DNA from: Escherichia coli
GTDB lineage: Bacteria; Pseudomonadota; Gammaproteobacteria; Enterobacterales; Enterobacteriaceae
Length of the DNA: 64,000 nt
Reading direction: 5' to 3' (one strand)
Assembly (NCBI RefSeq): GCF_045037415.1
Contig: NZ_CP173438.1
Part shown: positions 45,186 through 47,945 of the stretch, piece by piece
Layout: each line of letters begins with the position of its first letter
Position numbering within the stretch: position 1 is the first letter of the stretch
Translations under genes and position numbers: made by a program
Notes under the pieces: generated by a model
Told to the model about the DNA's origin: nothing
The model's database searches: none
Seen by the model: the letters and a program-made list of their open reading frames with translations, nothing else

Positions 45186-45370
45186 ACGGTATAAAAACGG
45201 GGCTGGGGATCACGCCGGGTGAGCACATTATCAGTGCCGACTCTGCGCTCAGCAGAAATATCCGGCATTGTTTCTGCCTTTCCTGGTAAGCGTAAACTGA
45301 CCGCCGTATGTAGCCATCAGACGAGAATTGGTAACTTAGACGCCCATCTGATATAGACGGACATCTAAGT

Positions 45371-45796
45371 ATGGAATTACAGGACTGGCGAAAAGAACCT
45401 CGTAAAAACTATTCGAATGAATTCAAACTTCGTATGGTGGAACTGGCATCACAACCTGGAGCTTGTGTTGCACAGATTGCACGTGAAAATGGCGTCAATG
45501 ATAATGTTATTTTCAAATGGCTCAGGCTCTGGCAGAACGAAGGGCGTGTTTCGCGGCGTCTTCCGGTAACGACCTCTTCTGACACTGGCGTTGAATTATT
45601 ACCTGTAGAAATAACGCCGGATGAGCAGAAAGAACCTGTGGCGGCCATTGCGCCGTCTTTATCCACTTCCACTCAGACCAGAGTCAGTGCCAGTTCCTGC
45701 AAGGTGGAATTCCGTCACGGTAACATGACGCTGGAAAATCCATCGCCAGAGCTGCTCACAGTGTTGATCCGTGAACTGACCGGGAGGGGAAGATGA
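45371..45796 (+). CDS. IS66-family accessory protein TnpA (Orf1)
   Basis: 141-aa ORF, first gene of the element. Confidence 0.8.
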   Translation: MELQDWRKEPRKNYSNEFKLRMVELASQPGACVAQIARENGVNDNVIFKWLRLWQNEGRVSRRLPVTTSSDTGVELLPVEITPDEQKEPVAAIAPSLSTSTQTRVSASSCKVEFRHGNMTLENPSPELLTVLIRELTGRGR

Positions 45797-46143
45797 TCTC
45801 ACTCCCATCAGGTACCCGTATCTGGCTCGTTGCCGGCGTTACCGATATGCGTAAATCCTTCAACGGACTGGGAGAACAGGTACAACATGTGCTGAATGAT
45901 AATCCCTTCTCCGGTCACCTGTTTATCTTCCGTGGCCGACGGGGTGACACCGTCAAAATTCTTTGGGCTGATGCTGATGGTCTGTGCCTGTTCACCAAAC
46001 GCCTGGAGGAAGGCCAGTTTATCTGGCCTGCGGTACGTGACGGCAAGGTATCCATTACCCGCTCGCAACTGGCAATGCTCCTCGATAAGCTGGACTGGCG
46101 TCAGCCAAAAACATCCAGCCGTAACTCACTGACAATGTTGTAA
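45793..46143 (+). CDS. IS66-family accessory protein TnpB (Orf2)
   Basis: 116-aa ORF overlapping tnpA by 4 bp. Confidence 0.8.
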   Translation: MISLPSGTRIWLVAGVTDMRKSFNGLGEQVQHVLNDNPFSGHLFIFRGRRGDTVKILWADADGLCLFTKRLEEGQFIWPAVRDGKVSITRSQLAMLLDKLDWRQPKTSSRNSLTML

Positions 46144-46173
46144 AAAACTCCTGACCGCATTATAAAAACGGTC

Positions 46174-47787
46174 ATGAGTCAGAAATACCTCATTCGCATC
46201 GCAGAGCTGGAAAGGTTGCTCTCTGAGCAGGCTGAAGCCCTCCGTCAGAAAGACCAGCAACTGAGTCTGGTTGAAGAGACGGAAGCCTTCCTGCGCTCTG
46301 CACTGACACGTGCCGAAGAAAAGATCGAAGAAGATGAACGGGAAATAGAACATCTGCGGGCTCAGATAGAAAAACTGCGCCGGATGCTGTTCGGTACCCG
46401 TTCTGAAAAACTGCGTCGTGAAGTTGAACTGGCTGAGGCTCTGCTGAAACAACGTGAACAGGACAGCGATCGTTACAGTGGGCGGGAAGACGATCCTCAG
46501 GTTCCCCGCCAGTTGCGACAGTCGCGCCATCGTCGTCCGTTACCGGCACACCTTCCCCGTGAAATACACCGCCTGGAGCCAGAAGAAAGCTGTTGCCCGG
46601 AGTGTGGCGGTGAGCTGGATTATCTGGGGGAAGTCAGCGCTGAACAGCTGGAACTGGTGAGCAGTGCCCTGAAAGTGATCCGCACAGAACGGGTAAAAAA
46701 AGCCTGTACAAAATGTGACTGTATTGTTGAAGCACCGGCGCCGTCCCGCCCGATAGAGCGTGGTATCGCGGGCCCCGGATTACTTGCCCGCGTGTTAACG
46801 GGAAAATACTGCGAACATCTGCCACTGTATCGTCAGAGTGAAATCTTTGCCCGCCAGGGTGTCGAACTGAGCCGGGCCTTACTCTCCAACTGGGTTGACG
46901 CGTGCTGCCAGTTAATGACACCGGTGAATGATGCCCTGTACCGTTATGTAATGAACACCCGCAAGGTTCACACTGATGACACACCGGTAAAGGTACTGGC
47001 ACCGGGTCAGAAAAAGGCGAAAACAGGGCGTATCTGGACGTATGTCCGGGATGATCGCAATGTGGGTTCGTCATCTCCTCCAGCGGTCTGGTTCGCGTAC
47101 TCGCCGAACCGGCAGGGGAAACACCCGGAGCAACACCTCCGCCCCTTCCGGGGTATCCTGCAGGCGGATGCGTTCACAGGTTACGACAGGTTGTTCAGTG
47201 CAGAACGTGAAGGTGGTGCACTGACAGAAGTTGCGTGCTGGGCCCATGCCCGGCGAAAAATCCACGATGTATACATCAGCAGCAAAAGTGCGACGGCAGA
47301 AGAAGCCCTGAAGCGAATCAGTGAACTGTACGCCATCGAGGATGAAATACGGGGATTACCGGAGTCAGAGCGTCTTGCCGTCAGGCAGCAGCGAAGCAAA
47401 GTGTTACTGACGTCGCTGCATGAATGGATGGTGGAGAAGAATGGTACGCTGTCGAAAAAATCCAGACTGGGCGAAGCGTTCAGCTATGTACTGAATCAGT
47501 GGGATGCCCTCTGTTATTACAGTGATGACGGTCTGGCGGAGGCGGATAATAATGCTGCGGAAAGAGCGCTTCGTGCAGTCTGTCTCGGAAAGAAAAACTT
47601 TATGTTCTTTGGCAGCGATCACGGCGGCGAGCGTGGAGCACTGTTGTACGGGCTGATCGGCACCTGCCGTCTGAACGGTATCGATCCGGAAGCGTATCTG
47701 CGCCATATCCTGAGCGTACTGCCGGAATGGCCTTCCAACCGAGTTGACGAACTCCTGCCATGGAACGTAGTACTCACCAATAAATAA
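46174..47787 (+). CDS. IS66-family transposase TnpC
   Basis: 537-aa ORF with N-terminal coiled coil, CxxC zinc-ribbon motifs and the conserved [12 protein letters not shown] region. Confidence 0.85.
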   Translation: MSQKYLIRIAELERLLSEQAEALRQKDQQLSLVEETEAFLRSALTRAEEKIEEDEREIEHLRAQIEKLRRMLFGTRSEKLRREVELAEALLKQREQDSDRYSGREDDPQVPRQLRQSRHRRPLPAHLPREIHRLEPEESCCPECGGELDYLGEVSAEQLELVSSALKVIRTERVKKACTKCDCIVEAPAPSRPIERGIAGPGLLARVLTGKYCEHLPLYRQSEIFARQGVELSRALLSNWVDACCQLMTPVNDALYRYVMNTRKVHTDDTPVKVLAPGQKKAKTGRIWTYVRDDRNVGSSSPPAVWFAYSPNRQGKHPEQHLRPFRGILQADAFTGYDRLFSAEREGGALTEVACWAHARRKIHDVYISSKSATAEEALKRISELYAIEDEIRGLPESERLAVRQQRSKVLLTSLHEWMVEKNGTLSKKSRLGEAFSYVLNQWDALCYYSDDGLAEADNNAAERALRAVCLGKKNFMFFGSDHGGERGALLYGLIGTCRLNGIDPEAYLRHILSVLPEWPSNRVDELLPWNVVLTNK

Positions 47788-47945
47788 GCGTCAATACGGT
47801 GCTCCGTTGACGCTTACCTTTCCTGTCATGGCCGGTTGATTCTGCAGACAGATGCTCAGGGGGCGTGGTTTGAGCATGATTTACATGCCCTGAGTGAGCA
47901 ACAGAAGGGTAAGCGTGCAGCAAGAACCGTATTGACGGGGATGTG

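What the first reader, a model, noticed from the sequence alone, without database searches (positions are those of the whole stretch)
45278..47825. Intact IS66-family element with perfect 8-bp target-site duplication
Both termini, all three ORFs and an 8-bp direct repeat (ctttcctg) are present, indicating a relatively recent simple insertion of a potentially active element.
Basis: seen in the sequence. Interest (0 to 1): 0.3.

Follow-up and report, generated by a model that had tools for sequence, protein, structure and literature searches.

The report
Intact ISEc23 insertion sequence copy
This is an ordinary, complete copy of the well-known E. coli jumping gene ISEc23 (IS66 family), which hopped into an already dead gene remnant in a genomic island; it is correctly described and not novel.

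Summary
Window 45286-47817 (+) is a complete 2532-bp ISEc23, an IS66-family insertion sequence. It has 24-bp imperfect terminal inverted repeats (20/24 match, both starting GTAAGCGT) and three intact genes: tnpA (141 aa), tnpB (116 aa) and tnpC (537 aa). A perfect 8-bp direct repeat, CTTTCCTG, flanks it at 45278-45285 and 47818-47825.

Removing the element and one repeat copy gives a sequence 100% identical to the empty site in many E. coli genomes, including JJ1887, Nissle 1917 and O25b:H4. Over 14.4 kb of flank, the window differs from JJ1887 only by the IS and the duplication. The filled junction occurs in 70 of 5426 complete E. coli genomes.

The element is 2532/2532 identical to the copy named ISEc23 on plasmid pEC958. 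It is also identical to copies at other sites, each with its own 8-bp duplication (8 of 9 full-length copies examined). This sequence variant has therefore transposed repeatedly and recently.

The target was an already truncated 'putative zinc ribbon protein' pseudogene, 83 bp from an older degenerate IS66-family nest, so no functional consequence is expected.

The parts
45286..47817 (+). Complete ISEc23 (IS66 family), 2532 bp
   Evidence: 100% identical over its full length to RefSeq loci annotated 'IS66-like element ISEc23 family transposase'. It is 2532/2532 identical to the pEC958 copy, which is named ISEc23 in PMC4398462. The ends are defined by independent copies.
45278..45285 (.). Left copy of the 8-bp target-site duplication, CTTTCCTG
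   Evidence: The empty site with a single copy is found at 100% identity in other genomes.
47818..47825 (.). Right copy of the 8-bp target-site duplication, CTTTCCTG
45286..45309 (+). Left terminal inverted repeat (IRL), GTAAGCGTAAACTGACCGCCGTAT
   Evidence: It matches IRR at 20 of 24 positions.
47794..47817 (-). Right terminal inverted repeat (IRR), GTAAGCGTCAACGGAGCACCGTAT on the minus strand
45371..45796 (+). tnpA, 141 aa, helix-turn-helix accessory protein
   Evidence: Pfam HTH_Tnp_1, E=5e-12. NCBIfam IS66_ISRel24_TnpA, 83 bits against a cutoff of 74. Identical to WP_000422741.1.
45793..46143 (+). tnpB (IS66 Orf2), 116 aa accessory protein; its start overlaps the tnpA stop (ATGA)
   Evidence: Pfam PF05717 TnpB_IS66, E=1e-36, profile positions 2-100 of 101. 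NCBIfam IS66_TnpB, 121 bits. Identical to WP_000624722.1.
46174..47787 (+). tnpC, 537 aa DDE transposase with leucine zipper, zinc finger, DDE_Tnp_IS66 and IS66 C-terminal domains
   Evidence: Pfam DDE_Tnp_IS66, E=9e-98, profile positions 1-283 of 284, plus LZ_Tnp_IS66, zf-IS66 and DDE_Tnp_IS66_C. NCBIfam transpos_IS66, 452 bits. CWAHARRK motif at aa 355-362. Identical to WP_000080195.1.
45182..45285 (+). 5' part of the disrupted target, a 'putative zinc ribbon protein' pseudogene remnant
   Evidence: RefSeq annotation of the identical locus. It is continuous with 47826-47907 in empty-site genomes.
47826..47908 (+). 3' part of the same pseudogene remnant, cut off at 47909 by the end of an older IS66-family fragment

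Best explanation
A single 2532-bp copy of ISEc23 (IS66 family) transposed into the sequence CTTTCCTG, inside a truncated zinc-ribbon pseudogene of a chromosomal island in an ST131-like E. coli.

Inferred mechanism, from family knowledge: the DDE transposase TnpC recognises the GTAAGCGT-initiated terminal inverted repeats, helped by the accessory proteins TnpA (helix-turn-helix) and TnpB. It joins the element's 3' ends to target phosphates staggered by 8 bp, and gap repair produces the 8-bp duplication.

Shown here: the element is structurally complete, and the same sequence variant has inserted at many other sites. It is therefore very probably still transposition-competent.

Inferred only: the donor was probably an identical copy on an IncF plasmid or elsewhere in the chromosome. 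The insertion is expected to be selectively neutral because the target was already a dead gene fragment.
For: - Anatomy: inverted repeats, three intact ORFs with near full-length profile matches, and the ATGA tnpA/tnpB overlap.
- Perfect 8-bp direct repeat.
- The reconstructed empty site is 100% identical over 382 bp in many genomes.
- JJ1887 flanks are 100.000% identical over 7300 + 7091 bp, and the two alignments overlap by just the duplicated bases.
- The filled junction is present in 70 of 5426 genomes.
- Independent full-length copies have the same ends and their own 8-bp duplications: GGCTCAAG, GGAGCAGA, GATGAGAA, AGTTTTTG, GTGTTGTC, CCATGCTC and TTTTATGT.
- Copies that are 100% identical sit on IncF plasmids, including one in a filled-site genome.
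- An 8-bp duplication is the reported rule for IS66 (PMC6778807).
Against: - No experiment here shows that this copy moves.
- The biochemical roles of TnpA and TnpB, and whether the pathway is cut-and-paste or copy-and-paste, are not established for the family. No solved structure has detectable sequence similarity to TnpC or TnpB.
- The direction of transfer (plasmid to chromosome or the reverse) cannot be decided. The plasmid copies examined sit at different sites in different strains.
- One of nine copies examined (L006) lacks a duplication. This fits secondary rearrangement and does not contradict the mechanism.
Confidence: 0.95

Rival explanations
1. The filled allele reached this genome by homologous recombination or horizontal transfer of an island segment that already carried the IS, not by a transposition event in this strain's direct ancestry.
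For: The island is shared at near identity among distant B2 lineages (Nissle 1917 differs by only 5 SNPs over 14.4 kb), so segments could be exchanged. Seventy genomes share the junction, and their monophyly was not tested.
Against: The flanks are 100.000% identical to an empty-site ST131 genome over 14.4 kb, so there is no sign of an imported tract. Even in this scenario the original event is the same simple transposition with an 8-bp duplication.
Confidence: 0.08
2. The copy is structurally intact but functionally silent, for example through a weak promoter or host repression, and so is a passive passenger rather than a potentially active element.
For: No sigma-70-like promoter was found upstream of tnpA by the simple scan. 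Transposition frequency was not measured.
Against: The identical 2532-bp sequence occurs at several unrelated sites, each with a fresh 8-bp duplication. This exact variant must therefore be mobile. Insertion sequences typically have weak promoters, and the simple scan is insensitive.
Confidence: 0.1
3. Assembly artefact: an IS copy placed at this locus by mis-assembly of a repeat.
For: Insertion sequences are classic sources of mis-assembly.
Against: The same junction is present at 100% identity in 70 independently assembled complete genomes. A perfect 8-bp duplication flanks the element, and a matching empty site exists.
Confidence: 0.01

Closest known systems
ISEc23 (IS66 family), e.g. the copy on plasmid pEC958 of E. 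coli ST131 EC958 (Phan et al. 2015, PMC4398462)
   Same: 2532 of 2532 nucleotides are identical. The three proteins are identical (WP_000422741.1, WP_000624722.1, WP_000080195.1). The inverted repeats are the same and the duplication length is 8 bp.
   Different: Only the insertion site differs: the chromosomal zinc-ribbon pseudogene with duplication CTTTCCTG, against a plasmid site with duplication TTTTATGT.
IS66 / IS679 (founding and best-studied members of the IS66 family)
   Same: Three-gene tnpA-tnpB-tnpC layout, a DDE TnpC with leucine-zipper and zinc-finger regions, inverted repeats starting GTAAGCG, and an 8-bp duplication. The 8-bp rule is cited in PMC6778807. The requirement for all three ORFs comes from my own knowledge of Han et al. 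2001, J Bacteriol 183:4296, which I could not read here.
   Different: It is a different family member. No direct sequence comparison with IS66 or IS679 was made here.
Neighbouring IS66-family fragments in the same window (ISEc8/ISEc22-like 'X' at 47909-49498; ISEc23-like 'Y' at 49483-51473)
   Same: Same family. Y is 88% identical to ISEc23 over element positions 1-1987, and X is about 64% identical over its tnpC region. X is 92-94% identical to ISEc8/ISEc22-annotated copies.
   Different: Both are truncated and fused to each other, lack a matching duplication, and are present in empty-site genomes, so they are older.

Membership tests
IS66 family | DDE transposase (TnpC) matching the IS66-family profile over its full length | tested here: met
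   Pfam DDE_Tnp_IS66, E=9e-98, profile positions 1-283 of 284. NCBIfam transpos_IS66, 452 bits against a cutoff of 180.
IS66 family | Accessory genes tnpA and tnpB upstream of tnpC, with tnpB of the IS66 Orf2 type | tested here: met
   tnpA: HTH_Tnp_1 and IS66_ISRel24_TnpA above cutoff. tnpB: PF05717, E=1e-36, and NF033819, 121 bits. The tnpA stop and tnpB start overlap as ATGA.
IS66 family | Imperfect terminal inverted repeats of about 20-30 bp beginning 5'-GTAAGCG (criterion from my own knowledge of ISfinder and Han 2001) | tested here: met
   24-bp inverted repeats with 20/24 matches, both starting GTAAGCGT.
IS66 family | 8-bp target-site duplication | tested here: met
   CTTTCCTG on both sides. 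The empty site has one copy. Seven other copies have their own 8-bp duplications. The rule is cited in PMC6778807.
IS66 family | Conserved CwAH-rR motif in TnpC between the second D and the E (criterion from my own knowledge of Gourbeyre et al. 2010) | tested here: met
   CWAHARRK at aa 355-362. Candidate catalytic residues lie in HTDDT (about aa 268), QADA (about aa 332) and NNAAER (about aa 463). These residue assignments are read from the sequence and were not verified against a curated alignment.
IS66 family | Experimentally demonstrated transposition that requires the encoded proteins | not testable with these tools
   Only indirect evidence is available: identical copies at multiple sites with fresh duplications, and presence/absence polymorphism.
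ISEc23 (specific element) | Near-identity to the element named ISEc23. The ISfinder convention, from my own knowledge, treats more than 95% nucleotide identity as the same IS. | tested here: met
   2532/2532 identical to the only ISEc23 on pEC958, as named by Phan et al. 2015. NCBI's PGAP annotation pipeline names the identical TnpC 'IS66-like element ISEc23 family transposase'.
ISEc23 (specific element) | Direct alignment with the ISfinder reference entry | not testable with these tools

The most novel reading that the evidence does not exclude
ISEc23 and other IS66-family elements may prefer to insert in or next to resident IS66-family sequences, a form of nesting or local targeting. Here the insertion lies 83 bp from an older IS66 end. 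Of the other copies examined, one sits inside an ISEc8 tnpC (L005) and one lies about 1.8 kb from another IS66-family element (L006). This particular insertion could also serve as a marker for a sublineage of ST131-like E. coli. Neither idea was tested statistically.
Probability: 0.15. Interest if true: 0.2.

Novelty: already known. Interest (0 to 1): 0.05.

Why it matters
It matters little beyond annotation. It confirms that ISEc23 is currently mobile in ST131-like E. coli, moving between IncF plasmids and the chromosome, and it provides a presence/absence marker shared by 70 of 5426 complete genomes. The insertion interrupts a gene fragment that was already dead, so no phenotype is expected. 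The one open biological question it touches is how the IS66-family accessory proteins TnpA and TnpB act. That is a family-wide gap, and this copy adds nothing special to it.

Tried and rejected
- An imperfect hairpin at 45334-45370, directly upstream of the tnpA start, looked like possible translational occlusion. RNA folding gives -12.7 kcal/mol with z = -0.6 against shuffles, which is not distinguishable from chance. Dropped.
- The promoter and terminator scan of the element found nothing above shuffle expectation and nothing upstream of tnpA. Uninformative.
- I looked for solved structures related to TnpC or TnpB to anchor the mechanism. None were found.
- I tried to read Han et al. 2001 (PMID 11418571 / PMC95320) and a review under the id I recalled for it (PMC7190074). 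Neither id is held. Statements taken from them are marked as my own knowledge.
- I tried to decide the donor direction by asking whether the plasmid insertion site is shared between filled and empty strains. The plasmid copies in THO-003, O25b:H4 and EC958 sit at three different sites, so direction stays undetermined.
- The eight duplication sequences show no evident target consensus by eye. This was not analysed formally.
- I did not run protein-database or structure-prediction jobs on TnpB. The cost was not justified for a known element.

Full report
**Observation**

The sequence at 45278-47825 is as described.
- The octamer CTTTCCTG occurs at 45278-45285 and again at 47818-47825.
- Between the two copies lies a 2532-bp segment, 45286-47817.
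- Its ends are imperfect inverted repeats: GTAAGCGTAAACTGACCGCCGTAT on the left and, as reverse complement, GTAAGCGTCAACGGAGCACCGTAT on the right. They match at 20 of 24 positions.
- The repeat finder extends the match by one base into the flank (25 nt, 84%). That extra base is a chance G/C pair.
- An 8/8 match at two fixed positions has a chance probability of about 1.5e-5.

**Coding content**

Three ORFs on the + strand fill the element.
- tnpA: 45371-45796, 141 aa.
- tnpB: 45793-46143, 116 aa. Its ATG overlaps the tnpA stop as ATGA.
- tnpC: 46174-47787, 537 aa. It ends 6 bp before the right inverted repeat.

Pfam results:
- TnpA matches HTH_Tnp_1 (E=5e-12).
- TnpB matches TnpB_IS66/PF05717 (E=1e-36, profile positions 2-100 of 101).
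- TnpC matches LZ_Tnp_IS66, zf-IS66, DDE_Tnp_IS66 (E=9e-98, profile positions 1-283 of 284) and DDE_Tnp_IS66_C.

NCBIfam agrees: transpos_IS66 at 452 bits, IS66_TnpB at 121 bits, and IS66_ISRel24_TnpA at 83 bits against a cutoff of 74.

TnpC carries CWAHARRK at residues 355-362. Candidate catalytic acidic residues lie in HTDDT, QADA and NNAAER. Nothing is truncated or frameshifted.

**Identity**

- Megablast against 5426 complete E. coli genomes finds 100% identical full-length matches. The genes are annotated 'IS66-like element ISEc23 family transposase' plus IS66 TnpA and TnpB.
- Plasmid pEC958 of ST131 strain EC958 is described in the literature as carrying one ISEc23 (PMC4398462). The only such element in that record, at 131259-133790, is 2532/2532 identical to the window's element.
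- The element is therefore ISEc23. The ISfinder entry itself could not be consulted.
- Matches to the element, including related IS66-family sequences, are abundant. 4795 of 5426 genomes have some match and 2485 have a match covering at least 80%.
- Matches on plasmids come mainly from Escherichia, Klebsiella, Shigella and Salmonella.

**Proof of simple insertion**

- I joined 44986-45285 to 47826-47907, keeping one copy of CTTTCCTG. This 382-bp construct is 100% identical to the chromosome of many E. coli, including JJ1887, O25b:H4 and Nissle 1917.
- JJ1887 matches window 37986-45285 and 47817-54907 at 100.000% (7300 and 7091 bp, no mismatches). The two alignments overlap in JJ1887 by 9 bp, which is the 8-bp target plus one chance base.
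- The only difference over 14.4 kb is therefore the IS plus the duplication.
- Nissle 1917 differs by five further substitutions.
- A 300-bp probe spanning the left junction is fully covered in 70 of 5426 genomes. Other ISEc23 copies match that probe only from position 148-151 onward, which places the left end at 45286.

**Evidence of activity**

I examined eight other full-length copies.

| Copy | Duplication |
|---|---|
| L004 | GGCTCAAG |
| L005 | GGAGCAGA |
| L007 | GATGAGAA |
| L009 | AGTTTTTG |
| pTHO-003-1 | GTGTTGTC |
| O25b:H4 plasmid | CCATGCTC |
| pEC958 | TTTTATGT |
| L006 | none |

- Seven have the same termini and their own perfect 8-bp duplications. L006 has none, which fits a later rearrangement.
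- Four of them (L009 and the three plasmid copies) are 100% identical in sequence to the window's copy.
- THO-003 has the filled chromosomal site and also carries an identical copy on its IncF plasmid.
- This exact sequence variant has therefore inserted repeatedly, and an identical potential donor coexists with the chromosomal copy. The direction of transfer cannot be decided.

**Context and consequence**

- The locus lies in a chromosomal island that carries a group-2 capsule (kps) cluster, agn43, a CbtA/YeeU toxin-antitoxin pair, YfjI and an inovirus Gp2 family gene.
- The target is a 'putative zinc ribbon protein' ORF that starts at 45182.
- In empty-site genomes this ORF is already a pseudogene, missing its C-terminus. 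It is cut at 47909 by the end of an ISEc8/ISEc22-like fragment, GTAAGCGTGCAG....
- ISEc23 thus landed in a 186-bp dead remnant, 83 bp from the older IS end. No phenotype is expected.

**Mechanism**

- Shown here: the anatomy, the 8-bp duplication, the insertion polymorphism and the multiplicity of identical copies.
- From family knowledge: an 8-bp duplication is characteristic of IS66 (PMC6778807).
- From my own knowledge: TnpC is the DDE enzyme, and in IS679 all three ORFs are needed for transposition (Han et al. 2001). That paper could not be read here.
- Peptides derived from IS66-family transposases were reported to bind the beta sliding clamp, and beta-binding motifs can lie in TnpB, TnpC or both (PMC3971601).
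- Inferred: staggered 8-bp target cleavage, strand transfer of the 3' ends and gap repair.
- Not established: whether the pathway is cut-and-paste or copy-and-paste. No solved structure has detectable sequence similarity to TnpC or TnpB.

**Verdict**

The element is the known ISEc23. The insertion is evolutionarily recent but shared by a set of sequenced genomes. Nothing about it departs from the family description. Interest is low.

Noticed in passing
window 47909-51473 (minus strand): An older degenerate IS66-family nest lies immediately downstream. An ISEc8/ISEc22-like fragment 'X' (47909-49498) has its right end and an intact 513/524-aa tnpC but lacks tnpA, tnpB and the left end. It is fused to an ISEc23-like element 'Y' (49483-51473), which is 88% identical to ISEc23 and has tnpA and tnpB intact but tnpC cut after 366 aa. 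The two homologies overlap by about 16 bp at the junction. No matching 8-bp duplication flanks the composite. It is also present in genomes that lack the ISEc23 insertion.
   Followed up: partly
L005 (NZ_CP024137.1) 3001-5531; L006 (NZ_CP069559.1); window 45286-51473: IS66-family elements recur next to or inside one another. In L005, ISEc23 sits inside an ISEc8 tnpC with duplication GGAGCAGA. In L006 it lies about 1.8 kb from another IS66-family element. In the window it lies 83 bp from one. This could reflect target preference, or simply tolerance of insertions in junk DNA. It was not tested statistically.
   Followed up: no
window 45334-45370: An imperfect 16-nt inverted repeat (ACTTAGACGCCCATCT / AGACGGACATCTAAGT) ends directly at the tnpA start codon. 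Its folding energy is not distinguishable from shuffled sequence (z = -0.6).
   Followed up: yes
window ~1-45000 (annotation transferred from near-identical THO-003, L010): The upstream context holds glcA, a frameshifted IS4 and gsp type II secretion remnants. It also holds a group-2 capsule (kps) cluster whose serotype region includes a CDP-glycerol glycerophosphotransferase. Next comes a CP4-like island with a frameshifted AbiEii toxin gene, a CbtA/YeeU toxin-antitoxin pair, an antirestriction gene, agn43, an hha fragment, YfjI and an inovirus Gp2 family gene. Many genes in this stretch are pseudogenes.
   Followed up: no
window ~51500-56800: Downstream of the IS nest lie a frameshifted transposase fragment and then a sialic-acid-type cluster: N-acetylneuraminate lyase, N-acetylmannosamine kinase, an MFS transporter, an alpha/beta hydrolase and a KdgM-family porin.
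   Followed up: no
L011 (pTHO-003-1) 7705-9082: The IncF plasmid of a filled-site genome carries a full identical ISEc23. It also carries a second, internally deleted ISEc23-like remnant, 92-95% identical.
   Followed up: no
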